Source: Candidatus Saccharimonadales bacterium (GTDB lineage: Bacteria; Patescibacteriota; Saccharimonadia; Saccharimonadales; UBA4665). From it: a stretch of 64,000 nucleotides of DNA. Below, piece after piece: positions 5,051-53,995 of this stretch (position 1 is the stretch's first letter; each line of letters begins with the position of its first letter). Location of the stretch: positions 75,059-139,058 of the forward strand of contig DATASD010000005.1 in assembly GCA_036263915.1 (NCBI GenBank), read 5' to 3'. The notes under the pieces were generated by a model. The model did not search any database, had not been told where the DNA came from, and saw only the letters and a list, made by a program, of their open reading frames with translations. A program made the position numbers and the translations under genes.

Positions 5051-7135
5051 ATGGCAGGAAAATATAAGATCCAAGATCTCAGAAACATTGGTATTATTGC
5101 GCACATTGACGCAGGTAAAACCACGACGACCGAAGGTATTCTGTACCGCACTGGTCTAAAGCACAAAATTGGTGCTGTTCACGAAGGTGAAACGACCACC
5201 GACTGGATGGCCCAGGAACGCGAACGCGGTATTACCATCGTGTCTGCGGCCGTAACGTGCTACTGGAAGAACAAGCAGATTAACATCATCGATACCCCTG
5301 GCCACATCGACTTTACCGTTGAGGTGGAGCGCTCGCTTCGCGTACTCGACGGCGCCGTGGTTGTGTTCGACGGTAAGATGGGCGTGGAATCACAGTCCGA
5401 AACCGTATGGCGCCAGGCCGACAAGTACAATGTGCCGCGTATTTGTTTCATCAACAAGATCAACCAAACCGGCGGCGACTTCTACAAATCACTCGAGAGC
5501 ATCCACAACCGCCTAAGCAAACGCGCGTTCCCGATTCACCTGCCGATCGGGTTCGAGCAAAGTGTGAACGGTGTAGTTGACCTCGTAACTATGAAGGCCT
5601 ATAGCTATAAGGAATTCACCGACCACGAGCTGGTCGAGGGTGAGATCCCTGCCGATATGCTCGATGAGGCTAAGAAATATCGCAGCTTACTTATCGAAAA
5701 CGCAGTTGCCGAAGATGAAGCCTTGCTCGAAAAATTCTTCGAGGTTGGTGAAGAAGGTCTGACGGAGACTGAAATCAAGCAAGCTATTCGCAGTGCTATT
5801 TTACATGGCGACTTCTTTGCGGTAACTGGTGGCGATGGCCGTGGGGTGATCGTCGAAAAACTGCTCGACTTGGTCACCGAATTGTTGCCGAGCCCAATCG
5901 ACCGTGGCTCTACGTGGGGCACCCATCCTAAGAGCGGCGATGAGATTGAACGCAAATCAGACGAGACACAGCCATTTGCAGCGCTGGCCTTTAAGATCGC
6001 AACCGACCCATTTGTAGGTAAGCTTGCATACTTCCGCGTGTATTCTGGTAAATTGCAAGCCGGTTCATACGTACTCAACTCGTCGACTGGAGAAAAAGAG
6101 CGCGTGGGCCGCATCGTTCGCATGCAAGCCGACAAGCGTGAAGATGTTACCGAAGTTTCTGCTGGTGATATTGCTGCCATTGTAGGTCTGAAGGGTACGA
6201 CCACTGGTAACACCTTGTGCGACGTTAATAATCCGATCGTTCTGGAGAGCATTACATTCCCCGAACCGCCAGTGTCAATCGCTATTGAGCCAAAGACCAA
6301 GGCCGACCAGGAAAAGATGAGCATTGCCTTGCAGCGCTTGGCCGAAGAAGATCCAACCTTCCGTGTGAAGGTCGACGACGAAACCGCGCAAACGATCATC
6401 TCGGGAATGGGTGAGTTGCACCTCGACATCATTGTTGACCGTATGAAACGCGAATTCAACGTTGAGGCTAACATCGGTCAGCCACAGGTTGCCTACCGCG
6501 AGACGATTCGTAAAGATGCTGTCGAAGTCCAAGGTAAATTCGTCCGCCAATCTGGTGGTCGTGGTCAGTACGGTGACGTATGGCTACGCCTGAGCCAGAA
6601 CGAAGCCGGCAAGGGCTTCGAGTTCATCAACTCGATCAAGGGTGGTGTTATCCCTGGCGAATACATCAAGCCGGTCGAGCAAGGTATTGTCGAGGCCATG
6701 AACAATGGTGTTATCGCTGGCTACCCGGTAGTTGATATCAAGGCTGAGCTCTACGATGGTAGCTACCACGAAGTAGACTCCAGCGAAATGGCCTTTAAAA
6801 TTGCCGGCTCGATGGCACTACAAGAGGGTGTCCGCAAGGCGACCCCGACCCTCCTCGAACCAGTTATGAAGGTTGTTGTCGTTACCCCAGAAGAATTTAT
6901 GGGTGACGTCATTGGCGACCTCAATAGCAAGCGCGGTCGCATCGAATCGATGGAAGATCTGCCTGCTGGCGTCAAGGAAATCACCGCCTTTGTGCCGCTT
7001 GGTGAAATGTTTGGCTACACAACCAACTTGCGTTCTATGACGCAAGGTCGCGCCAGCTCAAGCATGGAGCTTGATCACTACGCCGACGTACCAAACAACG
7101 TTGCCGAGGCGATCATCGCTAAGCACGCTAAATAA
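5051..7135 (+). CDS. fusA: translation elongation factor G
   Basis: [21 protein letters not shown] and NKID-type (NKINQ) GTPase motifs. Full-length 694-aa EF-G architecture. Confidence 0.98.
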
Positions 7136-7151
7136 TAGGTACACGAGCACT

Positions 7152-7185
7152 AAAAGACGCCCAGAAACAAGGGCGTCTTTTTATA
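7152..7185 (+). terminator. Rho-independent terminator after fusA
   Basis: AAAAGACGCCC / loop / GGGCGTCTTTT stem followed by a T-run, 17 nt after the fusA stop. Confidence 0.7.
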
Positions 7186-7214
7186 TTGCGCTGGCGATGC
7201 GTGCGCTGTACACT
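7186..7214 (+). promoter_or_regulatory. candidate promoter (TTGCGC-N17-TACACT) for the chorismate mutase gene
   Basis: TTGCGC at 7186-7191, a 17-nt spacer, TACACT at 7209-7214. GAGGA RBS at 7215-7219 before the ATG at 7225. Confidence 0.4.
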
Positions 7215-7224
7215 GAGGACTACG

Positions 7225-7491
7225 ATGCAAGAACAGTACGACCTGGCAGAGCTGCGTCGACAGATCGACCGTGTCGATGAGCAGCTTGTCCAGCTCTTGA
7301 ATGAACGTGCCCGCTTATCGCTCCAAGCCGGCATCGCCAAGAACTGGAAAGATATCTATCGTCCGGAGCGCGAAAAACAAGTCGTGAGCCACGTAACGTC
7401 AGTCAGCAATGGCCCGCTTTCTAACGAAGCAGTAACTGAAATCTTTCAAAAAATTATAGAGATCTGTCGCGCCATTCAGCGCAATAAATAA
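7225..7491 (+). CDS. AroQ-type chorismate mutase (88 aa)
   Basis: LAELRRQIDRVDEQLVQLLNERARLSLQAGIAK...YRPEREKQV matches the helical AroQ CM pattern (R..ID.iD..l..Ll..R...). The ATG at 7225 has an RBS, so the track start at 7186 is unlikely. Confidence 0.7.
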   Translation: MQEQYDLAELRRQIDRVDEQLVQLLNERARLSLQAGIAKNWKDIYRPEREKQVVSHVTSVSNGPLSNEAVTEIFQKIIEICRAIQRNK

Positions 7492-8766
7492 CTACCAGTT
7501 GCCGCCCACACATTGAGTTGTACCAACTCGAATACCGTTTCGCTGTGACTGTCGTACGCCCTCGACGCCTTTTACCCCCATTGCACCGAGCGACCATAGG
7601 GCTGCGCGGTAGGTCTGCAACTCTTGATCTGTTTGAGCCGCCACTTCTGCGCGCTCTTGGTGGTGTGCTTCCATAAAGCGCCGGTAAAGCTCGGGCGATA
7701 CATTAGCGCCAGTGGTGAACGTGATATTTGTTGTTCGTGGCCCGCCAGCATGTTCCCGCAGGTATACCTCAAGTCCGGCACGAGAAAGCGCACCGGCTGG
7801 TTCAATATTTCGGCCATACCGTTTGCTAAGATACGCCATTGCACCGCCGACCTGACCTTTGCTAACCGTCATGATTGGTGTTTCGACGAGCATCGCCATA
7901 GTCAAGTTTCCAGGTATGGCGAAGGTGCCATCATTATCTGCGTCATAATTACCATTAGGAAACAAATCTTCGATTGACTTCCAGGGCCTTCCGGACGTAT
8001 AGTGCTGCGCGGCGCGGTTGGAGAGGTCGCCACCCGCCATTTGGACTCCGATAAGCTCTAGGTCGATATCGTTTAAGAGTCCTTGTTCGTCGGCATATCG
8101 GCGTGCCATCTCAAGCCCGCTAATAAGTCCGCCGCCGCCAACCGGCACAAGCCAGCGAACTTTGCCTACCACGCCGTGGTTGCGCATTGATTGAATCACC
8201 TCTAGGCCAAGCGTACCTTGCCCGGTAATAACGTCTGGATGGTTGTATGGTGGAAGAAAATGGTGACCGTCCTGTTCGCCGAGTTCTGTAGCGCACTTGA
8301 TCGCGGCTGTGATGTCGGTGTGTACAGCCTGTACATCGACGCCAAGGCTCGTCATATTGTCCATCTTAACGCCGCTTGCCGAGTCGGCTGTTTGTGCATG
8401 TGCCTTCACGCCGATTAAACGAGCCGCTAGACCGGCCGAAGCGCCATGATTGCCGGCAGTCGCCGTATCTAGGTCCGTAAGCGGCACGCCAGCTCGCTGA
8501 GCATGTAATTTAGCTTCGAGCGCAGCATTAATCGCTCCTCGATCTTTGTATGTACCTGTTGGGTTATCGATCTGGCTTACATCGTACACTGTGTGACCGT
8601 ACAATACGGGTGCTGGTTGCAGACGGGCTTCCTGAATATCTTCTTCCCGAAATAATAGATCTCGCCCGCACTCATAGAAAGCATCGAAGCGCGGCTTGAC
8701 CTCGCCATACAGCTCGCTGAGTGTAGGTACGGCGTCTGTTTGTATTGCTAATAATTCAGTAGCCAT
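7492..8766 (-). CDS. PLP-dependent fold-type II enzyme, threonine/serine dehydratase-like (IlvA-like)
   Basis: The PLP-lysine motif PTGTYKDRGA, the GNHGAS block and the glycine loop VGGGGLISG are present. The ATG at 8766 has a GAAGGA RBS 6 nt upstream. The alternative ATG at 8781 abuts the upstream hairpin T-run. Confidence 0.75.
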   Translation of the reverse strand: MATELLAIQTDAVPTLSELYGEVKPRFDAFYECGRDLLFREEDIQEARLQPAPVLYGHTVYDVSQIDNPTGTYKDRGAINAALEAKLHAQRAGVPLTDLDTATAGNHGASAGLAARLIGVKAHAQTADSASGVKMDNMTSLGVDVQAVHTDITAAIKCATELGEQDGHHFLPPYNHPDVITGQGTLGLEVIQSMRNHGVVGKVRWLVPVGGGGLISGLEMARRYADEQGLLNDIDLELIGVQMAGGDLSNRAAQHYTSGRPWKSIEDLFPNGNYDADNDGTFAIPGNLTMAMLVETPIMTVSKGQVGGAMAYLSKRYGRNIEPAGALSRAGLEVYLREHAGGPRTTNITFTTGANVSPELYRRFMEAHHQERAEVAAQTDQELQTYRAALWSLGAMGVKGVEGVRQSQRNGIRVGTTQCVGGNW

Positions 8767-8783
8767 GGATTTTCCTTCCATAT

Positions 8784-8810
8784 AAAAAGCCCCGAGGGTA
8801 TCCCCGGGGC
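8784..8810 (-). terminator. attenuator terminator in the 5' leader of the dehydratase-like gene
   Basis: The minus strand reads GCCCCGGGGAUACCCUCGGGGC followed by UUUUU, immediately upstream of the RBS and start. No minus-strand gene lies upstream that it could terminate. Confidence 0.55.
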
Positions 8811-8834
8811 GTTGGTGGTTATGTTCGTATTATT

Positions 8835-8909
8835 TTATGCGTGTACCATCAATCGACCCCGAGTGGGGATAATAATGATGGCAATAATTTGTTTGCTCAC
8901 GCGCAACAT
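8835..8909 (-). CDS. candidate Ile-rich leader peptide MLRVSKQIIAIIIIPTRGRLMVHA (24 aa)
   Basis: Minus-strand ATG at 8909 and TAA at 8837-8835. Six Ile codons fall within seven positions (8888-8868). The ORF overlaps alternative helices that compete with the downstream terminator. Confidence 0.45.
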   Translation of the reverse strand: MLRVSKQIIAIIIIPTRGRLMVHA

Positions 8910-8953
8910 AGAAACAAGTATGTACTCGTCGCTCGCCATTTGCAAGTTTTTAC

Positions 8954-8982
8954 TTTACACTAGAGATGATTTCCGCTACAAT
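8954..8982 (+). promoter_or_regulatory. sigma70-like promoter upstream of tuf (TTTACA-N17-TACAAT)
   Basis: TTTACA at 8954-8959, a 17-nt spacer, TACAAT at 8977-8982. Confidence 0.5.
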
Positions 8983-9055
8983 ACGTGGGTCACTGGTGTG
9001 AGTATTTATCCTCATGCAGAAAACATTTAGTTATTAATTAAGGAGTCTTTCCCAA

Positions 9056-10240
9056 ATGGCAGACACATTTGACCGAAGCAAGCCGCACGTGAACGTTGGT
9101 ACTATGGGCCACGTTGACCACGGTAAAACGACTTTGACGGCCGCTATTACGGCTGTTCTCGCTAAGCGCCTTCCGAGCGCTGTTAACAAACCAATCGCGT
9201 ACGACCAGATCGACAACGCACCTGAAGAGCGCGCTCGTGGTATTACCATCGCTACCTCGCACCAAGAGTACGAGAGCGAAAAACGTCACTACGCACACGT
9301 TGACATGCCTGGTCACGCCGACTACGTCAAAAACATGATCACCGGTGCCGCCCAGGTTGACGGTGCTATCCTCGTGGTGTCTGCCGCTGATGGTCCTATG
9401 CCTCAGACTCGTGAGCACGTATTGCTTGCTCACCAGGTTGGTGTGCCAAAGATCCTCGTGTTCCTCAACAAGATGGACCTCGCCGACCCAGAACTCGTTG
9501 ACCTCGTCGAAGAAGAGGTTCGCGAACTCCTCGAAAAGAACGGTTTCGACAAGGACTGCCCAATTATCCGCGGTTCTGCAACCAAGGCTCTCGAAGGCGA
9601 CGCTGCCAACGAAGACGCTATCATGGAACTTGTGAAGGCTATGGATGACTACATTCCACAGCCAAAGCGCGAACTCGACAAAGCATTTTTGATGCCTATC
9701 GAAGACGTATTCTCGATCAAGGGTCGTGGTACGGTTGCAACCGGTCGTATCGAGCAGGGTGTTGTGAAGATCAACGACGAAGTTGAAATCGTTGGTGTTC
9801 GCCCAACTCAGAAATCTGTCGTAACTGGTATTGAAGCCTTCAAGAAGCAACTTGACCAAGGTCAAGCAGGTGACAACGCCGGTGTATTGCTTCGCGGTAT
9901 TGAGCGCGACGACATCGAGCGCGGTCAGGTGATTTGTAAGCCAGGCTCGATCACTCCTCACACCGAGTTTGAATCAGAAGTTTACATTCTGAACAAAGAC
10001 GAAGGTGGCCGTCACACGCCATTCTTCAAGGGCTACAAGCCTCAGTTCTACTTCCGCACGACTGACGTCACCGGTGAAGTTGAACTCCCAGCCGACAAAG
10101 AAATGGTAATGCCAGGCGACACCATAACCTTCAAGGTTAAGTTGCTCGCTCCAATTGCCATGGACCAGGGTCTTCGCTTCGCTATCCGCGAAGGTGGCCG
10201 TACGGTCGGCGCCGGTGTTGTAACCAAGATCATCAAATAA
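9056..10240 (+). CDS. tuf: translation elongation factor Tu
   Basis: [25 protein letters not shown] and the rest of a canonical 394-aa EF-Tu. Confidence 0.98.
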
Positions 10241-10284
10241 CAAGCTAGGGAAAATAGCTCGCACATTTCAAAGGAAGAACAGCA

Positions 10285-10614
10285 ATGGTAGCAGAACCAA
10301 AGAAAGAACAGAAACAACGGATCCGTATTCGCCTCAAGGCATACGACCACAAAGTCATCGACCAAGCTGCAAAGCAGATCGTTGACACTGCGCTTCGCAC
10401 GGGCGCTACCATCGCTGGTCCAATCCCACTGCCAACTGACCGCAGCACATTTACGGTTGTAAAAAGCCCACACGTGTACAAAAAGGGTCGTGAGCAGTTT
10501 GAAATGCGCGTTCACAAACGCCTTATCGACGTTACTGATCCAACACCAAAGACAATCGACTCATTGATGAATCTCTCACTGCCAGCCGGCTGTGATGTAG
10601 CCATCAAAATGTAA
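10285..10614 (+). CDS. rpsJ: 30S ribosomal protein S10
   Basis: [24 protein letters not shown]...GPIPLPT...[28 protein letters not shown]. Confidence 0.97.
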
Positions 10615-10636
10615 CAATACTTGTTACGAAAAAAAC

Positions 10637-10667
10637 AAAAACCGCTCCCAAAAAAGAGCGGTTTTTA
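10637..10667 (+). terminator. Rho-independent terminator directly after rpsJ
   Basis: AAAACCGCTC / loop CCAAAAAA / GAGCGGTTTT followed by T. Confidence 0.75.
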
Positions 10668-10685
10668 CATGGTAAGGACATACAC

Positions 10686-11033
10686 ATGGAATACTCAGCT
10701 AAAGACTACATACCCATAACGGACCCCCAACTAGTACATGTACTGGAAGATGCAGGATGCATAGGCGATCCCGTTCAAATGAACGATTCTGTTGATCCAC
10801 GCTACGGCGAAATTACTGAAGGTACTGTTATGGTACCTGCACGTGCTATACATGAGGCCTTTGGCTTATACGATAGTTTGCGAGATGATTACATCAGGGA
10901 AGGTGTGCCATACGACGATACGCCTTCCGATCGCCTATTTAACGCAATGAGCCAACGACAACATGCACTACTCCAGGGCTATGATTTCTTACATGGTTCT
11001 CCATCTACCGAGATACGAGAGCCCGACGCGTAA
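10686..11033 (+). CDS. hypothetical acidic 115-aa protein
   Basis: ORF with an AAGGA RBS about 8 nt upstream. Asp/Glu-rich with no TM segment. First gene of the block inserted between rpsJ and rplC. Confidence 0.5.
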   Translation: MEYSAKDYIPITDPQLVHVLEDAGCIGDPVQMNDSVDPRYGEITEGTVMVPARAIHEAFGLYDSLRDDYIREGVPYDDTPSDRLFNAMSQRQHALLQGYDFLHGSPSTEIREPDA

Positions 11034-11045: not shown

Positions 11046-11372
11046 ATGCTCGCCGTGTATGCTTTAATAGTGCTCATGGCTTCATCTAAAACAAAAAGCA
11101 AATCCCGTGCTCGAAGCATGAACGCGCAGCAATCATTTGATGGCGTGTATCTCTTAAAGCTCGTCTTGTATTTGCTTGTTGGTTCACTCTGGTTGAAGGT
11201 CACAACCGCAGCTGGCACGCATATTCCATTGCCGATCGGTTTTATTATCGGACTGCTCTTTACGACTCATGAGCATTTTCAGATTGATCGCAAGATAGAG
11301 TATGCGGTATTATTGGTAGCTATGCTTGTAGGTTACTTCGTGCCTACCTACGGCTTGTATATCACCCTGTAA
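11046..11372 (+). CDS. hypothetical small membrane protein (~3 hydrophobic segments)
   Basis: A basic N-terminal stretch (KTKSKSRARS) is followed by the hydrophobic runs VYLLKLVLYLLVGSLWL, IPLPIGFIIGLLF and AVLLVAMLVGYFV. Confidence 0.5.
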   Translation: MLAVYALIVLMASSKTKSKSRARSMNAQQSFDGVYLLKLVLYLLVGSLWLKVTTAAGTHIPLPIGFIIGLLFTTHEHFQIDRKIEYAVLLVAMLVGYFVPTYGLYITL

Positions 11373-11397: not shown

Positions 11398-13938
11398 ATG
11401 TCTTTCGAAGTGCCACCTAACCATGAAATGCCCGACCCACCACACCTAATAGAGCAAACGGCATCGCATGGCTCTGACCCAGTCTACGAAATCCATGAGC
11501 CGCCTACCACTGATGCCCCAGATGTGCCTATCGTACTGAGCGAGATGCGTGGTGCTTATCAAGAAGGTGGTAAGCCTGGCGAAATAACTAGTGCAATGAA
11601 AACACCAGAGGAATATCAGCGCGCCATCACTGAGCTTACGACCACATCACCGGAGGTTGCAGAAGCGCAGAGTGCGCGACTCGACGAAGTGGTCGACGAG
11701 GCACTTCGTCACACGGTCGGCGAGCATGAGCGGCAGGTGCTGGAGTATGCACGTGGCATATTCAAGTGGACACTTTTCGGTAAGTCCGAAGAGCAGTTGC
11801 CCGACGGCCTGGTGATTGGATCGCACCGAGGGAGGCCTGCGGTTCGCCTCGATGCGCGAAAGCTTATTACGCTCGACTGTATTATTGATGCAGGGAGCCG
11901 GCTCGAGCAATTTGGATTCGAAGAGGTTGTCGAGGCGGTCGATGCCGACATAGAATCTCGTTCGGACGCTGTTCGCGAAGAGATGCAGGGCGAAAGCAGA
12001 CAAAACCCTGCATATCTTTTCATGCAATCGTTTGATGTTCATGCGCAACCCGAAATAGTCGACGTACCACTCGACGAACGCGAAAAAGCTATTCGCGCTG
12101 GCCAGGTTCGCCAAGAGGTCATTGAGCGACACAATCTTCTCGAGCCGGGTGGGGTCTTTGAGCGGGCCTCAAGCGCAGACACTGAGCTGCGCCGCGGTTT
12201 GTGGCACATCGATGACGAAACAAAGCCGCAAGTAGAATCACGCAGCGACCAAAATCCTACCGAGCGTGCGCGTGCCTATCTCGCTGAACGTGCCATCGAC
12301 TATCATATTGCACGTCGCGACAATATTGAAGATACACCGGAAGTCCGTGAGCGGCTTAAGCAGCTAATGCTCTCCACCGATGCTCCAGCTGACAATGCTG
12401 AAGGCTACGACCGCTTTATTCTCTTTGATGACGCAACCTCATCTACCTATGTACTTTCCGAAGAACTTACAGAGGGGAGCCCTCTCATGGAAGAGGTGTT
12501 GGCGGGTAGTATTTTGAGAAACTATGTCAATACGCTCCTCAGAGATTATGATCCGTCACTGCCTTATGATCAGGCTGTGGAAAAGACTGTCAATCAGGCC
12601 GTTCAAGAAGTATGGGAATTTATGTTTGACGACATCGGTAAGGCAGGCGCCCTCGATAACATAGGCGAGTACGACCCAGCCATTCGCAACTCGCTTATGA
12701 CGCCTCGAGGCGAGCAAGTGCCACAAGGTACTTTGACGGAACACGCGCATCTGCACCACCACGGTACCGGTGATACGGAGTTTATGACCCGTGAGGCGGC
12801 TGAGTCGCTACAGGAGCAATACGTTGGCCACATAGAATCAGGTACTATTCCGGGCATGCGCGTCTTGCAGATTCGCAGCCGCGACGAAACCTTGCCGCAC
12901 ACAAGCGACCGGAGCGATGCAGTGCTGCGACTCCATGGCAGAGAATTTAATGATCACGACCCGTCGATTCCTGGCTTTACACTCGTGGCGCGCAACGATC
13001 TCGAAGGTCGGTATGAATTTACGCGCAATGACACCGACCCATATGCTTCACCGGAAGTGCCTATTTCAACGCAGCAGGCGCAGGAACTTGCGGATACATA
13101 CCGTGCAATTGGTCTCAATCAGCTCGCTTTTCGCATGTCGCAAAATACTGAACTTACCGTTGCCGATTTGGCGGAATATATAACAATATATAGTACTTAT
13201 CCACTGCCACAAGAGACCAGGTACAGCGAACAGTATCCACGAAGCCACAGCACACCAGACCTCGAAAGCTTTCGAGATTTCGTGGATGATGGCCGCCTTG
13301 CTGTACAATGTACTGGCGCAAAAAATTTCATGAAGCTATCGCTACAGCAGCTCTTTGGTGTTGAAAGTGCGAGCAGCATTGCCGGCCGAGCCATTGGTAC
13401 TGGCGACATTACTGAGCTTCAACACGGTCAGACGACCTTTACCCACAATGGTGAGTCATATATTATAGACACCACGCCACCTTCGCGTGCCGGCATGGGA
13501 ACATTACCCAATCCACCGTCGGACGCACCGCTACGACCACCAAGGCCAACCGCTCACGAGCAACTGCAGCGTACGCCACGTCAACAAGAAATCTCTGCGG
13601 AAATACCTCGCGATCCTAGCGCGCAGCTGCATGCCGCTCGGGCCTCGCTCGAAACACAGCTCGGTGCTGCTATGGGAATCCGGGGTCAGCAAGCGCTTTA
13701 CGAGGCGGTGGCAAAGTTACAGCCAAACGTCGATCCCGTCCGACGCACAACAGAGATGGCGATACAGGCGGCAGAAGGTGCCGCAACCCGTGAAGCGGCT
13801 GAATCGCTCGTAACGTATCTACAAAATTATCGCCAACAACCACGAGAGACCCTGAGGGCACAGGGCTATCCGGTGTATGAACCTCGGCTGCTCGACCTAT
13901 TGCACATGACGGCACAACGCATCTACAGGAATGCATAG
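11398..13938 (+). CDS. paralog 1 (most divergent) of the ~850-aa family with a transglutaminase-like C/H/D signature
   Basis: Shares family blocks with the other four copies: FKWTLFGK..QLPDGLVI, VPLDEREKAI, IPGFTLV, DPYASPEVPI, VQCTGAKNFMKLSL...HGQTTFTHNGESYIIDTTP, DPVRRT. GTGAGG RBS before the ATG. Confidence 0.8.
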   Translation: MSFEVPPNHEMPDPPHLIEQTASHGSDPVYEIHEPPTTDAPDVPIVLSEMRGAYQEGGKPGEITSAMKTPEEYQRAITELTTTSPEVAEAQSARLDEVVDEALRHTVGEHERQVLEYARGIFKWTLFGKSEEQLPDGLVIGSHRGRPAVRLDARKLITLDCIIDAGSRLEQFGFEEVVEAVDADIESRSDAVREEMQGESRQNPAYLFMQSFDVHAQPEIVDVPLDEREKAIRAGQVRQEVIERHNLLEPGGVFERASSADTELRRGLWHIDDETKPQVESRSDQNPTERARAYLAERAIDYHIARRDNIEDTPEVRERLKQLMLSTDAPADNAEGYDRFILFDDATSSTYVLSEELTEGSPLMEEVLAGSILRNYVNTLLRDYDPSLPYDQAVEKTVNQAVQEVWEFMFDDIGKAGALDNIGEYDPAIRNSLMTPRGEQVPQGTLTEHAHLHHHGTGDTEFMTREAAESLQEQYVGHIESGTIPGMRVLQIRSRDETLPHTSDRSDAVLRLHGREFNDHDPSIPGFTLVARNDLEGRYEFTRNDTDPYASPEVPISTQQAQELADTYRAIGLNQLAFRMSQNTELTVADLAEYITIYSTYPLPQETRYSEQYPRSHSTPDLESFRDFVDDGRLAVQCTGAKNFMKLSLQQLFGVESASSIAGRAIGTGDITELQHGQTTFTHNGESYIIDTTPPSRAGMGTLPNPPSDAPLRPPRPTAHEQLQRTPRQQEISAEIPRDPSAQLHAARASLETQLGAAMGIRGQQALYEAVAKLQPNVDPVRRTTEMAIQAAEGAATREAAESLVTYLQNYRQQPRETLRAQGYPVYEPRLLDLLHMTAQRIYRNA

Positions 13939-13967
13939 TTGACTTACCTATACTTTAATGATATAGT
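13939..13967 (+). promoter_or_regulatory. strong internal promoter candidate between paralogs 1 and 2 (TTGACT-N17-TATAGT)
   Basis: TTGACT at 13939-13944, a 17-nt spacer, TATAGT at 13962-13967, in the only sizeable (AT-rich) gap inside the array. Confidence 0.5.
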
Positions 13968-13994
13968 AAACATTTGTCTATAGGTGCTCCTGTC

Positions 13995-16538
13995 ATGCCT
14001 CACGCAGAATACTCACGCTCAAACGAAACGAACAATCCATTGCTTTTTCAGTCTGCGCTCGAATTGTATACTACTGCCTCTGATTTTGTAGGAACTCTTC
14101 AGGATTCGTATACAGGGATCATTGAGCCACCATCAACCAACTCCGAACTTATTAAGAGTGCTGACCGAGTAGTTGACGAAGCATTGGCCGAAAACCCCAT
14201 TCAGACCCAAACGCCAGAAATACCAATAGATCCAGAGGCACGTCGTCGCCGAGTCGCCGAACTTACGGCATGTACGCCCGAATTCGAGGCCGAGAAACAA
14301 CTTGAGCTAGACGCAATCATCGACGAGACACGTCTGCATGCGCCAAGCGCGCACGATAGGCGATCGATCGAGTTGGCCGGCAATCTATACCGATGGCAAC
14401 TATTTGGTAAACATAGCGATCCATTGCCCGATGGCTTTGTAATAACCAAACATCCTCACACTGGCGACACCTACATTAGTTGCGACAAGCGACGATCTTT
14501 CACGGCCAGTTGCATAGACACTGCAGATGCTCAGTTCGAGATACGTGGCCTGAATAAACTTATGGGTGCGACACGAGAGCACCTGCGAGAGGTGCATGAC
14601 ACTTCAGACGAACTACATGCAATAATAAACGATAACCCCGCTAATGCATTTCTCCGTAGTTTTGACGTGCCTTCCCAGCCAAAGACTACAGAAGTCCCCC
14701 TCGATCAACGACAGCGGGCAATCGAAGAAGAGAAGCTTCGCCAGGCCGTACTCCAACGACATGGACTTGATGCAACGCAAGCCGCAAACATCCAGCGCGG
14801 CGACCCTGTCGATATGGAGCTTCGGCGGGCATTTTGGCGCCTAGACGACCAAACCCAGCAACAGCGGGAGCCACAAAAGCAAGACGGCCTTATGCGGTTG
14901 CGTGATTATTTCGTCGACTGCATAGCTGATGAGTATATCCGAGTTAGAAGCAACAATATGCCAGAATACGACAAGGGGACGATAAAGGCGGTTTTCGACG
15001 ATAGCCTAGCTAGAAGAGATGAATACAGAGAAATTGCATCGTGGACTCACGGTTCCGACAGGAAAATCATCAAAGAGCTCGGTGGCGACAAAGCCCGCGA
15101 CCAATTACAATACGAGCTCATTCAAAAAACAATAGGTATAGCCATAACTTCGCTTATCCACTCCGAGACACCTCCAGAAAACTTTGCTGACTTTATAGAA
15201 AGTGTGGAGCGAGAGACAACGGCTGTGATATCTAACACTCTACGTTACAATATTGGCGCCATAAAATACGATGTAACAACAGGCCACAGCCCGAACCTAC
15301 GCGATGCCATCGTTGCGCCAAGTGGGGAATTTGTGCCATATGAGGAACTTCAGGAGTATCATCACGCGCATCCAATAGGTGAAACGGCATACGTAAACGA
15401 GAGCATGATAGATCGCCAGGAGGCGCGAACGCTTGGCGAAGTGCAATGGGGACAAGTGCCTAATCAGCGTGTTATTCAGATTCAAGAACGCGACACTTCA
15501 TTACCAAAGATAAGCCTCGAAACCGAGCTTGAACTGAAGTTGTATGATCGCGAGTTTGATACCGCTGATCCTGTAATACCAGGCTATACGCTCGTAAGTC
15601 ACGATGATCTATATTTTGGGTTCAAACGTGATGCTACCGATCCGTATGCGCCGGTTAATGTGCCTCTTCCTGAGGATAAACGGTTATCTTTGGCTAAAGA
15701 ATTCCGCGATATTGGTCTCGAGACCCTTGCTACTCGCGTAGAAAGTCAGCCGCTCACCGTTGAAGAGCTACGTGCGAATATTCAGCAAAGTAGTTATTAC
15801 CCGAAGCCAGAGTGGGACGATGTCGGCGCGACAAAAAAATATCCGCATAGTATAGCGAACGACAAGTTGGAACGGTTTGAGCGAGTTGTTATTAACAACG
15901 AACTCCATGTGCAATGTACGGGAGCGGCTAATTTCCTGAGGCTATCGCTTGATCATATATTTGGCCCTGGCAGCGCCAATATTACCAGCGGCGTAGCTAT
16001 AGATAGCAAGACCTATATCACCGCTGCTCGACACCGACAGACAACATTTGTGCACAACGGGCTATCGTACATCTTGGACGCGACGTCTGGCGCGGCATCG
16101 CTGCCATCAAACACACGCGAGGCGCCCGAAGCTCGCACCACTCAGGATGCACCGCCTGCCGCACCGAAAGGGCCTATCGTCTCTTATCAAGACGTCGCAC
16201 ATTCACAGCAGGAAAACCTACAGATGGCTCGACGCTCTCTTGAATCTCAGCTGAGTAACGCCTTGCAAACGCCTGATGCGCAAGCTCTTTATAGCCACGT
16301 TGCTGCACTGCCGGAGGCAACCGACCCAGTGCGCCGCACGCTTGGTCTCGCCATGCGTGCTACTAACGGAGGCACAATATCAAAAGCCGAAGCAATCGCT
16401 CTGGTAGAATTTTTAGATGTCTACAAGAAGCGCGCACCTGAAGAATTGCGCAGTTTCGGCTTACCGGAATACAGCCCACAGATGCTTGACATGCTTGTCA
16501 CAAGCGCGCGAACCATCGCCTGTAACATTGCCGCATAA
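13995..16538 (+). CDS. paralog 2 of the ~850-aa transglutaminase-like family
   Basis: The ATG at 13995 (MPHAEY...) aligns with the MPSREF/MPSRQF starts of copies 3-5 and has an AGGTG RBS 8 nt upstream. The track start at 13974 is a TTG. Contains VQCTGAANFLRLSL...HRQTTFVHNGLSYILDATSG. Confidence 0.85.
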   Translation: MPHAEYSRSNETNNPLLFQSALELYTTASDFVGTLQDSYTGIIEPPSTNSELIKSADRVVDEALAENPIQTQTPEIPIDPEARRRRVAELTACTPEFEAEKQLELDAIIDETRLHAPSAHDRRSIELAGNLYRWQLFGKHSDPLPDGFVITKHPHTGDTYISCDKRRSFTASCIDTADAQFEIRGLNKLMGATREHLREVHDTSDELHAIINDNPANAFLRSFDVPSQPKTTEVPLDQRQRAIEEEKLRQAVLQRHGLDATQAANIQRGDPVDMELRRAFWRLDDQTQQQREPQKQDGLMRLRDYFVDCIADEYIRVRSNNMPEYDKGTIKAVFDDSLARRDEYREIASWTHGSDRKIIKELGGDKARDQLQYELIQKTIGIAITSLIHSETPPENFADFIESVERETTAVISNTLRYNIGAIKYDVTTGHSPNLRDAIVAPSGEFVPYEELQEYHHAHPIGETAYVNESMIDRQEARTLGEVQWGQVPNQRVIQIQERDTSLPKISLETELELKLYDREFDTADPVIPGYTLVSHDDLYFGFKRDATDPYAPVNVPLPEDKRLSLAKEFRDIGLETLATRVESQPLTVEELRANIQQSSYYPKPEWDDVGATKKYPHSIANDKLERFERVVINNELHVQCTGAANFLRLSLDHIFGPGSANITSGVAIDSKTYITAARHRQTTFVHNGLSYILDATSGAASLPSNTREAPEARTTQDAPPAAPKGPIVSYQDVAHSQQENLQMARRSLESQLSNALQTPDAQALYSHVAALPEATDPVRRTLGLAMRATNGGTISKAEAIALVEFLDVYKKRAPEELRSFGLPEYSPQMLDMLVTSARTIACNIAA

Positions 16539-16549
16539 TGTACAGAACT

Positions 16550-19111: not shown

Positions 19112-19115
19112 TCCT

Positions 19116-21695: not shown

Positions 21696-21706
21696 CCAGG
21701 ATTTAT

Positions 21707-45690: not shown

Positions 45691-45775
45691 GCAGGGATAG
45701 TGAAGCGGTCAAACACGGGTGACTGTAAATCATCTGGCTCAGCCTTCGGGGGTTCGAATCCCTCTCCCTGCACCA
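45691..45775 (+). tRNA. tRNA-Tyr (anticodon GTA), class II, discriminator A73
   Basis: Acceptor GCAGGGA/TCCCTGC, anticodon loop CTGTAAA, long variable arm, T-loop TTCGAAT, ACCA end. Confidence 0.88.
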
Positions 45776-46735: not shown

Positions 46736-46766
46736 AAAAGAGCCGCCCATAAAGCGGCTCTTTTTA
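46736..46766. terminator. bidirectional Rho-independent terminator (rpmG / GH15 gene)
   Basis: AAAAGAGCCGC / CCATAAA / GCGGCTCTTTTT. It has an A-run on one side and a T-run on the other and sits between convergent genes. Confidence 0.75.
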
Positions 46767-48707: not shown

Positions 48708-48709
48708 AG

Positions 48710-53849: not shown

Positions 53850-53938
53850 GGAGGGTTGCAGGAGCGGTTTAACTGGACCGTCTGTAAAACGGATTTTCCT
53901 TAGCGGAAACGTGGGTTCGAATCCCACACCCTCCGCCA
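53850..53938 (+). tRNA. class II tRNA with anticodon GTA (Tyr) but discriminator G73 (Ser-like body)
   Basis: Manual fold. Acceptor GGAGGGT/ACCCTCC, 3-bp D stem CAG/CTG, anticodon arm ACCGT-CTGTAAA-ACGGA (27:43 A:A mismatch), long variable arm TTTCC-TTAGC-GGAAA, perfect T arm GTGGG-TTCGAAT-CCCAC, then G + CCA. Confidence 0.6.
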
Positions 53939-53953: not shown

Positions 53954-53995
53954 AAATAATCCCCGAATGTAATGAGCTTCGGGGATTATTTATTT
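53954..53995 (+). terminator. strong Rho-independent terminator after the cargo tRNA
   Basis: AAATAATCCCCGAA / 10-nt loop / TTCGGGGATTATTT, followed by ATTT. Confidence 0.7.

What the first reader, a model, noticed from the sequence alone, without database searches (positions are those of the whole stretch)
8784..8909. Ile-codon leader peptide and three-helix attenuator upstream of the threonine-dehydratase-like gene
On the minus strand, a 24-codon ORF (ATG 8909 to TAA 8835) encodes MLRVSKQIIAIIIIPTRGRLMVHA, with six Ile in seven positions. The RNA can form three mutually exclusive structures. The first is helix 1:2. It pairs CCAUCA, within the Ile codons (8881-8876), with UGAUGG (8851-8846), and pairs CCCC (8868-8865) with GGGG (8860-8857). 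The second is helix 2:3. It pairs GGGGUCGAUUGAUGG with CCACCAACGCCCC (8818-8806). The third is the terminator 3:4, GCCCCGGGG-AUAC-CCUCGGGGC plus UUUUU (8810-8784). The peptide stop codon lies just past segment 2. This is the textbook topology of ribosome-mediated attenuation, as in the ilv, thr and trp leaders. It fits an Ile-responsive IlvA-type enzyme downstream. A TTGCAA-N17-CATACT promoter lies about 7 nt upstream of the ATG, which would make the leader mRNA nearly leaderless. Amino-acid attenuation in a metabolically reduced CPR-like genome is unexpected.
Basis: partly seen in the sequence, partly recalled or inferred. Interest (0 to 1): 0.65.

Follow-up and report, generated by a model that had tools for sequence, protein, structure and literature searches.

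The report
Isoleucine leader-peptide attenuator in Saccharibacteria
A short isoleucine-rich mini-gene with a switchable RNA terminator sits in front of a threonine-deaminase-like gene in a soil Saccharibacterium (CPR); it is conserved with that gene in relatives, so these reduced bacteria probably sense isoleucine supply by the textbook ribosome-stalling trick.

Summary
On the minus strand there are a promoter (TTGCAA-N17-CATACT), an ATG 7 nt later, a 24-codon ORF with 6 Ile in 7 codons, a 1:2 hairpin, a 2:3 alternative and a strong terminator. The terminator ends 17 nt before the start codon of a PLP enzyme gene.

None of this is chance. The fold has z = -4.0. No dinucleotide shuffle of 5000 gives such an Ile run.

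The whole element recurs upstream of every homologue of the enzyme that I could reach (5 clades, 10 distinct sequences). The enzymes are only 31-35% identical. The first Ile is always codon 8. Both the terminated and the antiterminated structures show compensatory changes.

Relatives also carry a sister element, a Phe/Tyr-codon leader plus terminator, upstream of pheA. That supports codon-based amino-acid sensing in this lineage.

The host is a soil Saccharibacterium. The regulated enzyme has the threonine-deaminase catalytic fold but no allosteric domain, and its substrate is unproven.

This is a new member of a known kind, a leaderless ribosome-mediated attenuator like those of Actinobacteria. 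I found no description of one in CPR bacteria. There are no transcript data, so the mechanism remains inferred.

The parts
8917..8945 (-). Promoter of the leader: -35 TTGCAA (8945-8940), 17-nt spacer, -10 CATACT (8922-8917). The ATG lies 7 nt downstream, so the leader mRNA is leaderless or nearly so.
   Evidence: Read. The same TTGCAc/TGGACA-N17(18)-[CA]ATACT or TATATT arrangement, with 6-8 nt to the ATG, occurs in all relatives (sequences). There is no Shine-Dalgarno sequence before the ATG, whereas the enzyme gene has one.
8835..8909 (-). Leader ORF, 24 codons plus TAA: MLRVSKQIIAIIIIPTRGRLMVHA.
   Evidence: Homologous ORFs in relatives: MQRV[SF]PQIIAIILP, MVQRRQNIIAIIMLP[PI]G[AT]Y, MVRQQQNIIAIIMIPSGTY, MLRKSLQIIAIIILPHRGSLMAHVQI and MLRVSTQISAIIITPARGRLMVHA.
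8868..8888 (-). Regulatory codons 8-14: AUU AUU GCC AUC AUU AUU AUC (I I A I I I I). They overlap segment 1.
   Evidence: The first Ile is codon 8 in all 11 sequences. Ile 8, 11 and 12 are invariant. Such a run occurs in 0 of 5000 shuffles.
8898..8902 (-). P0, 5' strand (GCGUG, codons 3-4). It pairs with 8843-8839.
   Evidence: MFE fold. All 5 pairs show changes on both sides across relatives (helix 1).
8839..8843 (-). P0, 3' strand (CACGC), just after segment 2.
8865..8883 (-). Segment 1: UGCCAUCA (8883-8876), AUU (8873-8871) and CCCC (8868-8865). This is the 5' strand of the 1:2 anti-antiterminator (pause-type) hairpin and lies within the Ile and Pro codons.
   Evidence: MFE fold. 99% of cells pair across 10 sequences. 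The strand is almost invariant, as expected if it must both encode Ile and pair (helix 2).
8844..8863 (-). Segment 2: CUCGGGGUCGAUUGAUGGUA. It pairs with segment 1 (terminated state) or with segment 3 and the terminator 5' arm (antiterminated state).
   Evidence: Partner table, constrained folds, pair counts.
8802..8819 (-). Segment 3: ACCACCAAC plus the terminator 5' arm GCCCCGGGG (8810-8802).
   Evidence: With segment 1 masked and the RNA cut at the terminator loop, 8-9 of the 9 nt of the terminator 5' arm pair with segment 2, dG -20 to -24 kcal/mol.
8784..8810 (-). Intrinsic terminator 3:4: GCCCCGGGG-AUAC-CCUCGGGGC (8810-8789) plus UUUUU (8788-8784).
   Evidence: -18.5 kcal/mol. 5 of 9 pairs show compensatory changes in relatives (helix 3). 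One loop SNP in L004.
8773..8779 (-). Shine-Dalgarno sequence GGAAGGA of the enzyme gene, 4 nt after the U-tract. There is no room for a separate promoter.
   Evidence: In relatives the start codon follows the U-tract by a comparable distance, about 15-25 nt.
7492..8766 (-). Regulated gene: a 424-aa PLP (fold-type II) enzyme with the threonine/serine-dehydratase-like catalytic module and no ACT/regulatory domain.
   Evidence: Pfam PALP 3.6e-36. NCBIfam hits are all far below their cutoffs. AF2 model pLDDT 84; the best fold matches are threonine deaminase catalytic domains 8zkv, 8y1j, 1tdj. The PLP-lysine motif TYKDRG and the TAGNHG motif align with IlvA/TdcB.
8954..8982 (+). Divergent tuf promoter-like site (TTTACA-17-TACAAT), back to back with the leader promoter. 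It is context and not part of the attenuator.
   Evidence: The same site is conserved in relatives (sequences). tuf lies at 9056-10240.

Best explanation
This is a ribosome-mediated transcription attenuator that senses isoleucine, that is, the charging of tRNA-Ile.

Proposed sequence of events:
1. Transcription starts at or 1 nt before the AUG of a 24-codon leader ORF. A 70S ribosome initiates on the leaderless 5' AUG while RNA polymerase is still in the leader.
2. When Ile-tRNA is plentiful, the ribosome runs through codons 8-14 to the stop codon and covers segment 2. If no ribosome loads, segment 1 pairs with segment 2 instead.
3. In either case the terminator 3:4 (8810-8784) forms and transcription stops 17 nt before the enzyme gene's start codon.
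4. When Ile-tRNA is scarce, the ribosome stalls on the AUU/AUC run and masks segment 1. Free segment 2 then pairs with segment 3 and the 5' arm of the terminator before the 3' arm is made. The terminator cannot form, and polymerase reads into the threonine-deaminase-like gene. In some relatives it would read into a longer operon.

Shown here: the sequence anatomy, its statistical non-randomness, its conservation with covariation, and its strict linkage to this enzyme family.

Inferred: the transcription start, translation of the ORF, termination and read-through, Ile specificity in vivo, and the enzyme's reaction. The likely reaction is Thr to 2-oxobutanoate, the committed step towards Ile.
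For: 1. Anatomy is exact.

2. Non-randomness: fold z = -4.0; the Ile run occurs in 0 of 5000 shuffles.

3. Conservation. The element lies directly upstream of every family member whose locus I could fetch. These are L005-L010, L014, L017-L022, L029 and a contig in run X4, giving 10-11 distinct sequences in 5 clades. The enzymes are only 31-35% identical while the leaders are 60-74% identical at DNA level. The leader stays with the gene in three different genomic contexts: divergent from tuf, after a 130-aa gene, and before M20 peptidases.

4. Coding signature. The ATG lies 6-8 nt after the -10 element in all sequences. The first Ile is always codon 8. The core is I-[IS]-A-I-I-[ILM], followed by Pro within two codons. 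In the 95%-identical X4 variant, 4 of the 8 changes in the ORF are synonymous: Arg3, Val4, Ile11, Ile12.

5. The stop codon moves between sequences (apical loop, inside segment 2, just after segment 2). In every case a terminating ribosome would cover the part of segment 2 that pairs with the terminator arm.

6. Terminated state: 95.9% of cells pair and 11 of 29 pairs have compensatory changes (P0 5/5, terminator 5/9). Covariation is 0.341 against 0.146 for shuffles (0/500), and slid controls pair at 37-47%.

7. Antiterminated state: 92% of cells pair and 7 of 16 pairs are compensatory. Covariation is 0.242 against 0.140 (0/500), and slid controls pair at 33-57%. One segment-2 column shows C-G, U-A, G-C and A-U.

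8. With a ribosome mask on the Ile codons and the RNA cut at the terminator loop, the antiterminator forms in 9 of 9 sequences. It covers 5-9 of the 8-10 nt of the terminator arm, at -14 to -26.5 kcal/mol against -11 to -18.5 for the terminators.

9. P1 is nearly invariant although the other helices covary. This is what is expected if its 5' strand must also spell Ile codons.

10. There is no space for a promoter between the terminator and the gene.

11. The genome uses canonical intrinsic terminators at gene ends.

12. A sister element in relatives has a Phe/Tyr-codon leader (…SFQFYFT…, …QFYFT…, …MYFVCFF…), a terminator and an antiterminator upstream of pheA. So the codon run matches the pathway of the downstream gene twice.

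13. The enzyme has the threonine-deaminase catalytic fold but lacks the Ile/Val-binding regulatory domain. A related genome without the element carries a canonical 500-aa IlvA with that domain.
Against: - There is no RNA evidence at all. No public RNA run holds the locus, so the start site, translation of the ORF, short terminated transcripts and Ile-dependent read-through are all untested.
- At equilibrium, with segment 1 masked and the full-length RNA, the terminator still wins in most sequences. Antitermination would therefore have to be kinetic. This is normal for attenuators but is not shown here.
- Much of the 2:3 pairing is GGGG/CCCC, and it survives shuffling of the spacer. The extra stability from the spacer-proximal part is modest in the window itself (P = 0.12) and in the L005/6 clade (P = 0.18-0.27). 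It is clear only in L017, L018 and L022 (P = 0.002-0.022). The combined Fisher P is about 4e-4 by my arithmetic.
- The pair counts come from alignments fitted to each structure, and from only 10 related sequences.
- Leaderless initiation has not been shown in Saccharibacteria, and P0 pairs nucleotides 8-12 close to the AUG.
- The rest of an Ile pathway was not seen in the 64-kb window or in the fetched flanks. It is therefore unclear what good inducing this enzyme does when Ile runs short.
- In the X4 variant two Ile codons are lost (I9S, I14T), so the run is not strictly conserved.
Confidence: 0.8

Rival explanations
1. The conserved RNA is a riboswitch-like or protein- or tRNA-binding terminator/antiterminator switch, and the short ORF is incidental. 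The invariant AUUAUUGCCAUUAUU / UUGAUGG stretch would then be a ligand or protein site rather than codons.
For: The P1 strands are conserved at the nucleotide level, third codon positions included, beyond what pairing needs. The C-terminal part of the peptide and the stop position are not conserved. No Shine-Dalgarno sequence precedes the ATG.
Against: - No Rfam family matches, T-box included. The best hits are MicX at 23 bits against a threshold of 75 and His_leader at 19 against 49.
- The ATG keeps a fixed 6-8 nt distance from the -10 element and a fixed 7 codons to the first Ile in all clades, while the intervening nucleotides vary and covary.
- Half of the ORF changes in the X4 variant are synonymous.
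- A second leader in the same lineage carries Phe/Tyr codons in front of pheA. A structure-only sensor would not predict that match.
Confidence: 0.08
2. The ORF senses general translation stress or a ribosome-targeting compound, as in erm-, bmrCD- or mef-type leaders. The Ile run and Pro would then form a nascent-peptide arrest or slow-decoding motif rather than an Ile gauge.
For: The topology is the same as in antibiotic-responsive ribosome-mediated attenuators (papers listed: PMC4191407, PMC4335068). A Pro codon always follows the run within two codons. The Ile pathway context is missing from the sequence that I hold.
Against: The regulated gene is a threonine-deaminase-like PLP enzyme and not a resistance or efflux gene. 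Runs of one amino acid's codons are the hallmark of biosynthetic attenuators. The sister Phe leader precedes pheA.
Confidence: 0.06
3. The element is an independent small gene, encoding a hydrophobic micro-protein or an sRNA of about 126 nt, with its own promoter and terminator. The enzyme gene would be transcribed separately.
For: It is a complete promoter-ORF-terminator unit, and the peptide has a hydrophobic core. Attenuator-derived RNAs and leader peptides can act in trans in other bacteria (PMC6614838 and PMC7298713, listed).
Against: - Only 4 nt separate the U-tract from the SD of the enzyme gene, and only 17 nt separate it from the ATG, so no promoter fits there. The spacing is similarly tight in relatives.
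- Peptide length varies from 14 to 26 aa, and the sequence after the run is not conserved.
- The unit is always attached to this enzyme family, in three different contexts.
- The covarying antiterminator has no role in a stand-alone gene.

A trans role in addition to attenuation is not excluded.
Confidence: 0.04
4. The element is a chance combination of an A/T-rich ORF and a terminator in a divergent promoter region.
For: None beyond the small size of the element.
Against: Fold z = -4.0. The Ile run occurs in 0 of 5000 shuffles. The element is conserved across five clades with compensatory changes.
Confidence: 0.01

Closest known systems
Corynebacterium glutamicum ilvBNC attenuator (leader IlvL, MTIIRLVVVTARRLP)
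   Same: A ribosome-mediated three-hairpin attenuator whose leader peptide has no ribosome-binding site, with transcription starting 1 nt from the leader ATG (PMC11857589). It carries branched-chain regulatory codons and controls branched-chain amino-acid synthesis. In both cases a 5' hairpin lies close to the leaderless start.
   Different: The C. glutamicum leader has mixed Ile/Val/Leu codons and a 292-nt leader upstream of ilvB. Here the run is almost pure Ile, the whole unit is 126 nt, and the regulated gene is a threonine-deaminase-like enzyme. No sequence similarity was detected. The phylum differs (Actinomycetota against Patescibacteria).
Escherichia coli ilvGMEDA leader ilvL (from memory, not tested here: MTALLRVISLVVISVVVIIIPPCGAALGRGKA)
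   Same: A leader peptide with an Ile(/Val/Leu) run followed by Pro. The same 1:2 / 2:3 / 3:4 topology. The operon includes ilvA, so Ile limitation raises threonine deaminase. The shared 'LRV…IIIP…G.' pattern is a resemblance that I recall, not a tested homology.
   Different: The E. coli leader has a Shine-Dalgarno sequence and a 5' UTR, is multivalent (Ile, Val, Leu), and controls a five-gene operon. E. coli IlvA also has an allosteric regulatory domain. Rfam has no matching family for the present RNA.
Escherichia coli pheL-pheA attenuator (two pheL groups: PMC3082878, listed)
   Same: Closest analogue of the sister element seen in relatives. That element has a Phe-codon leader, a terminator and an antiterminator directly upstream of a chorismate mutase-prephenate dehydratase gene.
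   Different: The Saccharibacteria version mixes Phe with Tyr codons, seems leaderless (TATGAT, 7 nt, ATG in L023 and L024), and gives only a sub-threshold Rfam Trp_leader hit (24.6 bits against 41). It is not present in this window.
Mycobacterial leaderless polycysteine sORF attenuators (bioRxiv 10.1101/834739, listed)
   Same: Leaderless short ORFs enriched in one amino acid's codons, placed as the first cistron, which tune expression of downstream amino-acid genes according to supply of that amino acid.
   Different: Those sense Cys. As I recall, and did not check here, they do not rely on a canonical intrinsic terminator/antiterminator pair.
Threonine deaminases IlvA / TdcB (PDB 1tdj, 8y1j, 8zkv, 2gn0)
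   Same: The regulated enzyme shares the fold-type II PLP catalytic module (TM-score about 0.8 on the target, 24-26% identity). It also shares the PLP-lysine motif, the [ST]-A-G-N-H loop and the GGGG loop.
   Different: It has no ACT-like regulatory domain. It has an extra N-terminal helix (residues 16-41) and a long C-terminal helix (358-395). It scores 70-108 bits against NCBIfam models whose cutoffs are 317-801. Ser/Asp racemases are nearly as close.

Membership tests
Ribosome-mediated (leader-peptide) transcription attenuators | A short ORF with a run of codons for one amino acid, or a few related ones | tested here: met
   6 Ile in 7 codons, reached by 0 of 5000 shuffles. The run is kept in all relatives, with 4-6 Ile.
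Ribosome-mediated (leader-peptide) transcription attenuators | An intrinsic terminator between the leader ORF and the first structural gene, with no promoter in between | tested here: met
   A 9-bp G+C-rich stem plus U5 at 8810-8784, 17 nt before the ATG at 8766. Conserved with 5 of 9 compensatory pairs.
Ribosome-mediated (leader-peptide) transcription attenuators | An antiterminator (2:3) that excludes the terminator, with its 5' strand freed only when a ribosome sits on the regulatory codons | tested here: met
   Constrained folds give it in 9 of 9 sequences. 92% of cells pair and 7 of 16 pairs are compensatory. Partner table. Caveats: the alignment was fitted to the structure, and the GGGG/CCCC core pairs regardless of the spacer.
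Ribosome-mediated (leader-peptide) transcription attenuators | An anti-antiterminator / pause hairpin (1:2) that overlaps the regulatory codons | tested here: met
   It is in the MFE fold of all sequences, and 99% of cells pair. Pausing itself was not tested.
Ribosome-mediated (leader-peptide) transcription attenuators | The leader ORF is translated | not testable with these tools
   Indirect evidence only: the fixed distance of the ATG from the -10 element, the fixed codon phase to the Ile run, and synonymous changes. No ribosome profiling or RNA data exist.
Ribosome-mediated (leader-peptide) transcription attenuators | Short terminated transcripts, and read-through that rises when the cognate amino acid is limiting | not testable with these tools
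   No RNA run holds the locus.
Ribosome-mediated (leader-peptide) transcription attenuators | The downstream gene belongs to the pathway of the sensed amino acid | tested here: inconclusive
   The enzyme has the threonine-deaminase catalytic fold and motifs. It scores below all curated cutoffs, and no other ilv genes were seen in the sequence held.
Rfam leader families (His_leader RF00514, Trp_leader, Thr/Leu/Phe leaders) and MicX RF01808 | A score at or above the family's gathering threshold | tested here: not met
   His_leader 18.7 bits against 49, and MicX 23.2 against 75. Nothing for the Ile leaders of relatives.
T-box leaders (tRNA-sensing) | A match to the T-box covariance model (specifier loop, T-box sequence) | tested here: not met
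   No T-box hit even at E-values up to 10 in 7000-10500, nor in relatives' loci at E <= 1.
Biosynthetic threonine ammonia-lyase IlvA (TIGR01124 / TIGR01127 / PRK09224) | A whole-protein score above the curated cutoff | tested here: not met
   93-95 bits against cutoffs of 379-577.
Biosynthetic threonine ammonia-lyase IlvA (TIGR01124 / TIGR01127 / PRK09224) | A C-terminal ACT-like regulatory domain (PF00585 or PF01842) | tested here: not met
   Pfam finds only PALP. The AF2 model shows a single long helix and a disordered tail after residue 357.
Biosynthetic threonine ammonia-lyase IlvA (TIGR01124 / TIGR01127 / PRK09224) | Fold-type II PLP catalytic module with the Schiff-base lysine, the S/T-A-G-N-H loop and the G-rich phosphate loop | tested here: met
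   Top Foldseek hits are 8zkv, 8y1j, 9d2q and 1tdj. The motifs align.

The most novel reading that the evidence does not exclude
Soil Saccharibacteria (Patescibacteria/CPR) are described as lacking amino-acid biosynthesis and as having almost unknown gene regulation. On this reading they carry a small set of leaderless leader-peptide attenuators. One is an Ile sensor in front of a threonine deaminase that has no regulatory domain. Its sister is a Phe/Tyr sensor in front of pheA plus an aminotransferase. Both sit in a variable amino-acid island between fusA and tuf. Feedback by Ile would then have moved from allostery on the enzyme to attenuation on the mRNA. These would be the first cis-acting amino-acid sensors described in CPR bacteria. 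They would also imply working transcription-translation coupling and leaderless initiation on the unusual CPR ribosome.
Probability: 0.5. Interest if true: 0.7.

Novelty: new member of a known kind. Interest (0 to 1): 0.6.

Why it matters
**A regulatory mechanism for CPR bacteria.** A 2024 review states that how Patescibacteria regulate themselves is 'virtually unknown' and that they lack amino-acid biosynthesis (PMC11665869). This element gives a concrete, testable mechanism. My literature searches found no description of attenuation in this group.

**A small, portable readout.** The unit is 126 nt long and self-contained. It could be moved to a reporter and would report tRNA-Ile charging in an epibiont that depends on a host for nutrients.

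**A hint of partial biosynthesis.** Together with pheA, an aminotransferase, chorismate mutase and, in one relative, a canonical IlvA, it suggests that some soil Saccharibacteria keep regulated last-mile or partial amino-acid synthesis.

**A clue to an unannotatable enzyme.** The regulatory logic (Ile codons) gives a functional clue for a divergent PLP enzyme family that homology alone cannot annotate.

**A possible expression tool.** The review lists inducible expression as something still to be developed for genetic work in Saccharibacteria. The element might serve as a part for that.

Tried and rejected
- **tRNA or known RNA family.** ARAGORN finds no tRNA near the site. Rfam gives only sub-threshold hits.
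- **Same-species contigs L002-L004.** They are identical apart from 2 SNPs, so they say nothing about covariation.
- **Metagenome contigs pattern scan** (TTGATGGTACACGC…CCACCAA). Of 6 hits, 5 were chance and only L014 was real.
- **Word-index protein search.** It suggested a family of only 8 clusters. The exhaustive HMMER search shows this is wrong: more than 100 representatives of about 390-480 aa score 170-650 bits without a sharp gap, and several lie on Saccharibacteria-sized contigs.
- **Swap test.** Pairing segment 2 of one clade with segment 3 of another was uninformative, because the GGGG/CCCC and UUGAUGG cores are shared.
- **Plain MAFFT alignment (A3).** It misaligns segment 3, the terminator and the 3' strand of P0. 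I used covariance-model alignments instead.
- **RNA-seq.** The only RNA run listed holds tuf fragments of other species and nothing on the leader.
- **Weak model hit.** An R1 hit at window 53955-54056(-) (15.5 bits, E 0.66) was treated as noise.
Full report
**1. What is at the site**

Reading 8400-9300 on the minus strand confirms every element of the finding at the stated coordinates.
- Promoter: TTGCAA (8945-8940), 17 nt, CATACT (8922-8917), then 7 nt to the ATG.
- Leader ORF: ATG at 8909 and TAA at 8837-8835, encoding MLRVSKQIIAIIIIPTRGRLMVHA.
- Terminator: GCCCCGGGG-AUAC-CCUCGGGGC plus UUUUU at 8810-8784.
- Four nt after the U-tract comes the Shine-Dalgarno sequence GGAAGGA (8779-8773).
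- ATG 8766 starts a 424-codon gene. The longer ORF from ATG 8781 listed is probably not the true start.

I call the outer helix P0: GCGUG at 8902-8898 pairs with CACGC at 8843-8839. The energy is -47.3 kcal/mol against -32.3 +/- 3.7 for dinucleotide shuffles (z = -4.0, 0 of 200 as good).

An ATG ORF with six identical residues in seven never appears in 5000 dinucleotide shuffles of the intergenic region. ATT and ATC are the common Ile codons of this genome (201 and 175 against 65 ATA in 14 genes), so this is a run of ordinary codons and not of rare ones.

**2. Setting**

The intergenic region is a divergent promoter region.
- tuf (EF-Tu, 9056-10240) runs rightwards on the plus strand, with a promoter-like TTTACA-17-TACAAT at 8954-8982.
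- fusA (5051-7135) lies to the left, with its own terminator at about 7158-7184.
- Between fusA and tuf sit a small chorismate mutase gene and, convergent with it and abutting it, the leader-controlled gene. The chorismate mutase (CM_2) starts at ATG 7225 and has its own promoter and SD.

EF-Tu is 91-95% identical to EF-Tu of MAGs labelled Candidatus Saccharimonadales or Saccharibacteria. The sequence occurs in soil metagenomes.

The genome uses canonical intrinsic terminators at several gene ends. The leader's hairpin (-18.5 kcal/mol) is the strongest compact one in the window.

**3. The regulated gene**

Sequence evidence:
- Pfam sees only a PALP domain.
- NCBIfam models for threonine/serine dehydratases hit at 70-108 bits, against cutoffs of 317-801.
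- A profile of the family finds threonine dehydratases first in the PDB: 8y1j at 1.8e-47, TdcB at 3e-42, IlvA at about 1e-39. Serine and aspartate racemases follow at 1e-36 to 1e-32.

Structure evidence:
- An AlphaFold2 model (pLDDT 84) matches threonine-deaminase catalytic domains best (8zkv, 8y1j, 9d2q, 1tdj; TM-score about 0.8 on the target).
- It has no ACT-like regulatory domain. Residues 358-395 form one long helix and the tail is disordered. There is an extra N-terminal helix.
- The Schiff-base lysine motif (TYKDRG), the [ST]-A-G-N-H loop and the GGGG loop align with IlvA and TdcB.
- From memory, and not tested here, racemases of this fold carry Ser where this family and the dehydratases carry Ala in that loop. 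That favours a dehydratase.

So 'threonine-dehydratase-like' is fair, and 'IlvA' is not established.

**4. Relatives**

The enzyme has no close relative in the word-indexed protein search (next best about 30% identity). I therefore walked in from EF-Tu.
- Contigs carrying the closest EF-Tu proteins show a 413-430-aa PALP gene divergent from tuf, with a gap of about 300 nt. These are L005-L010 and later L029.
- These proteins are only about 35% identical to the window's enzyme but align end to end.
- A profile search added four more distant members. Their loci are L017-L022.

In every one of these loci the region upstream of the gene holds the same unit:
- a -35/-10 pair with a 17-18-nt spacer;
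- 6-8 nt from the -10 element to an ATG;
- seven codons, and then the Ile run;
- a 1:2 hairpin;
- a terminator that ends about 15-25 nt before the gene's ATG.

The leader peptides are:
- MQRV[SF]PQIIAIILP
- MVQRRQNIIAIIMLP[PI]G[AT]Y
- MVRQQQNIIAIIMIPSGTY
- MLRKSLQIIAIIILPHRGSLMAHVQI

A soil DNA run (X4) holds a contig 95% identical to 8772-9036. All of its 11 substitutions lie upstream of 8864, and 8 of them fall in the first 46 nt of the ORF. The peptide becomes MLRVSTQISAIIITPARGRLMVHA. Four changes are synonymous (Arg3, Val4, Ile11, Ile12) and four are not.

The leaders are 60-74% identical to the window's at DNA level, although the enzymes are 31-35% identical at protein level.

The leader travels with the gene through three different neighbourhoods: next to tuf, after a 130-aa gene with its own terminator, and ahead of two M20 peptidase genes.

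Close EF-Tu relatives that lack the gene also lack the leader (L023-L028).

**5. Structures across relatives**

Per-sequence folding:
- Every distinct leader folds into the 5' hairpin (P0, P1, apical stem) plus the terminator.
- I then cut the RNA at the terminator loop and masked the 5' part as a ribosome would with its A site on codons 9-11. The 2:3 helix forms in 9 of 9 sequences. It occupies 5-9 of the 8-10 nt of the terminator's 5' arm, at -13.9 to -26.5 kcal/mol. The terminator hairpins are at -11 to -18.5.
- A partner table shows segment 2 switching between a 5' and a 3' partner in every sequence. Its variable columns are matched by complementary changes in segment 3, and one column shows C-G, U-A, G-C and A-U.

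Pair counts. I built covariance models of the two states from the window-type sequences and aligned all leaders to them.

| State | Cells paired | Pairs changed on both sides | Covariation (shuffled) | Slid controls |
|---|---|---|---|---|
| Terminated | 95.9% | 11 of 29 (P0 5/5, terminator 5/9, P1 1/15) | 0.341 (0.146; 0/500) | 37-47% |
| Antiterminated | 92.0% | 7 of 16 | 0.242 (0.140; 0/500) | 33-57% |

These alignments are fitted to the structures and hold only ten related sequences, so the numbers lean in favour of the structures.

Less flattering controls:
- Shuffling only the spacer leaves the GGGG/CCCC part of 2:3 intact.
- The added stability of the real spacer has P = 0.12 (window), 0.18-0.27 (L005/6), 0.002 (L017), 0.014 (L018), 0.12 (L020) and 0.022 (L022).
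- Across five clades this combines to about 4e-4 by Fisher's method (my arithmetic).
- A cross-clade swap test was uninformative.
- At equilibrium on the full-length masked RNA the terminator usually persists. Antitermination would have to be kinetic, as in classical attenuators.

**6. Why a translated sensor and not only an RNA switch**

1. The ATG sits 6-8 nt after the -10 element in all clades and has no SD, while the enzyme gene has a strong one. This is the layout of a leaderless mRNA.
2. The distance from the ATG to the first Ile is exactly seven codons everywhere, although those 18 nt vary and covary with the 3' strand of P0.
3. P1 is the only helix that hardly varies, at a depth where the other helices show many compensatory changes. 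That fits a strand that must both pair and spell Ile-Ile-Ala-Ile-Ile.
4. The stop codon moves: apical loop in L005-10, inside segment 2 in L017-21, just after segment 2 in the window and L022. It always lies where a terminating ribosome would cover the part of segment 2 that invades the terminator.
5. The same lineage has a second element of the same build with different codons. Upstream of pheA (chorismate mutase-prephenate dehydratase-ACT, followed by an aminotransferase) in L009, L023 and L024/25 lie three ORFs:
   - MNKLNMYFVCFFMPRKVAVSSVRI
   - MRTQSNKQFYFTGTNLAVCS
   - MSYIVNSFQFYFTTRVLAACFVRS

   Each is followed by a GCCCGCC…GGCGGGC-U5+ terminator right before the pheA SD. An antiterminator covers 5-6 of the 7 nt of the terminator arm when a ribosome is placed on the Phe codons. 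In L023 and L024 a TATGAT box sits 7 nt before the ATG.

So there are two leaders, each with a codon run that matches the pathway suggested by the downstream gene. A structure-only reading does not explain this.

**7. Mechanism proposed**

- Plentiful Ile-tRNA: the ribosome reaches the stop codon and masks segment 2, the terminator forms, and a transcript of about 126 nt is released.
- No translation: 1:2 forms, and the terminator forms as well.
- Scarce Ile-tRNA: the ribosome stalls on codons 8-14 and masks segment 1. Segment 2 captures segment 3 and the terminator's 5' arm before the 3' arm is made, and polymerase reads into the enzyme gene.

In L029 the gene heads an array of eight co-directional genes that may be co-regulated: TrpR-like, AstE/AspA-like, a 494-aa protein, HAD, a nucleoside hydrolase, a class-Ib aminoacyl-tRNA-synthetase-like gene and an ALAD-like gene.

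The enzyme lacks an allosteric domain. I therefore suggest that Ile feedback acts here on the mRNA instead of on the protein. One related genome without the element has a canonical 500-aa IlvA with the regulatory domain. This is suggestive, but it is a single case.

All steps after the sequence anatomy are inferred. No RNA data exist for the locus.

**8. Comparison with what is known**

The closest working analogue is the C. glutamicum ilvBNC attenuator. It has three hairpins, and its leader peptide MTIIRLVVVTARRLP is made without a ribosome-binding site from a transcript that starts 1 nt before the ATG (PMC11857589). Other analogues are:
- the E. coli ilvGMEDA leader (from memory);
- pheL-pheA, for the sister element;
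- the mycobacterial leaderless polycysteine sORFs (bioRxiv 10.1101/834739, listed).

The RNA is not a member of any Rfam family. His_leader scores 18.7 bits against a threshold of 49, MicX 23.2 against 75, and there is no T-box hit.

Full-text searches for attenuation, leader peptides, riboswitches or leaderless mRNAs together with Saccharibacteria, Patescibacteria or CPR found nothing relevant. A 2024 review calls regulation in this group virtually unknown and lists amino-acid synthesis among the missing pathways (PMC11665869).

**9. Limits and a correction**

The word-indexed search made the enzyme family look tiny, with 8 clusters. The exhaustive search shows a continuum of more than 100 representatives of about 390-480 aa scoring 170-650 bits. 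Several lie on Saccharibacteria-sized contigs, and some share a contig length with EF-Tu hits. I could not fetch their loci, so I do not know how far the leader extends through the family.

I also could not see the rest of any genome. Whether these organisms can turn 2-oxobutanoate into Ile is therefore open. The window and the flanks that I hold contain no other ilv genes.

**10. Verdict**

The element is a new member of a known kind. Interest is moderate to high because of the lineage, the leaderless design, the sister Phe element, and the functional clue for an otherwise unannotatable enzyme family.

Noticed in passing
L009:610-745, L023:1118-1245, L024/L025:1074-1205 (not in the window): A second attenuator family in related Saccharibacteria. 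It has a Phe/Tyr-codon leader ORF (MNKLNMYFVCFFMPRKVAVSSVRI, MRTQSNKQFYFTGTNLAVCS, MSYIVNSFQFYFTTRVLAACFVRS), a GCCCGCC…GGCGGGC-U5+ terminator and an antiterminator, directly upstream of pheA (CM_2-PDT-ACT) plus an aminotransferase. It seems leaderless too (TATGAT, 7 nt, ATG). Rfam gives only a sub-threshold Trp_leader hit (24.6 bits against 41).
   Followed up: partly
L023:7466-8185(-) (851-kb Saccharibacteria contig): A close relative that lacks the leader-linked enzyme carries a canonical 500-aa IlvA with the Thr_dehydrat_C regulatory domain. Its start and upstream region lie beyond the fetched locus. The two forms may be alternatives, one regulated by allostery and the other by attenuation.
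   Followed up: partly
window 7136-9055, compared with L009, L023, L024, L026-L029: The fusA-tuf spacer is a variable island in this clade. It is nearly empty in L026-28 (one 157-aa gene). It holds pheA plus an aminotransferase in L023 and L024, those two plus the PLP enzyme in L009, chorismate mutase plus the enzyme in the window, and an 8-gene array headed by the enzyme in L029 (TrpR-like, AstE/AspA-like, HAD, nucleoside hydrolase, class-Ib aaRS-like, ALAD-like).
   Followed up: partly
window 8864-8914 (contig of run X4): A 95%-identical soil variant has 10 of its 11 substitutions within 51 nt at the 5' end of the leader: the ORF's first 46 nt and the 5 nt before the ATG. It has none in the 92 nt that cover segment 2, the spacer, segment 3 and the terminator. 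Two Ile codons are lost (I9S, I14T). Two synonymous changes (C9U, G12A) re-register P0 into a perfect 8-bp helix.
   Followed up: partly
window 7492-8766(-) compared with 9056-10240(+): The enzyme is about 35% identical to its counterparts in genomes whose EF-Tu is 94% identical, while the non-coding leader is 72-74% identical. The regulator is better conserved than the enzyme it controls.
   Followed up: partly
window 11398-24274(+): Five tandem paralogous ORFs of 846-859 aa (11398-13938, 13974-16538, 16538-19111, 19116-21695, 21707-24274) are inserted between rpsJ and the ORFs from 24412 onward (not annotated here). The three that I scanned have no Pfam hit. Two small ORFs (10686-11033, 11046-11372) precede them, also without a Pfam hit.
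   Followed up: no
window 54688-55557(+); 53850-53938: An IS1595-family transposase (DDE_Tnp_IS1595 plus zinc ribbon) lies in a low-G+C stretch (0.43) next to a second tRNA-Tyr(GTA) gene. The first tRNA-Tyr is at 45691-45775.
   Followed up: no
window 46764-51126(-): A cluster for glycogen/starch-type metabolism: GH15 glucoamylase-like, GH57, and a GT4/GT5 starch-synthase-like glycosyltransferase.
   Followed up: no
window 10635-10667 (both strands): A bidirectional terminator-like hairpin (AAAAACCGCUCUUUUUUGGGAGCGGUUUUU) lies after rpsJ, and canonical terminators lie after fusA (7158-7184) and at 45813, 46761, 54207 and 62468. Intrinsic termination seems to be in general use in this genome.
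   Followed up: partly
L022:5337-5468(+): A ribosomal protein L10 leader (RF00557, 65.6 bits, above the threshold of 44) lies on the contig that carries the most divergent leader-enzyme pair. It is followed by a partial gene.
   Followed up: no
protein searches: The word-indexed protein search reported 8 family clusters, with a drop from 328 to 153 bits. The exhaustive HMMER search found more than 100 representatives scoring 170-650 bits without a gap. Family size from the indexed search was badly underestimated for this fast-evolving protein.
   Followed up: yes
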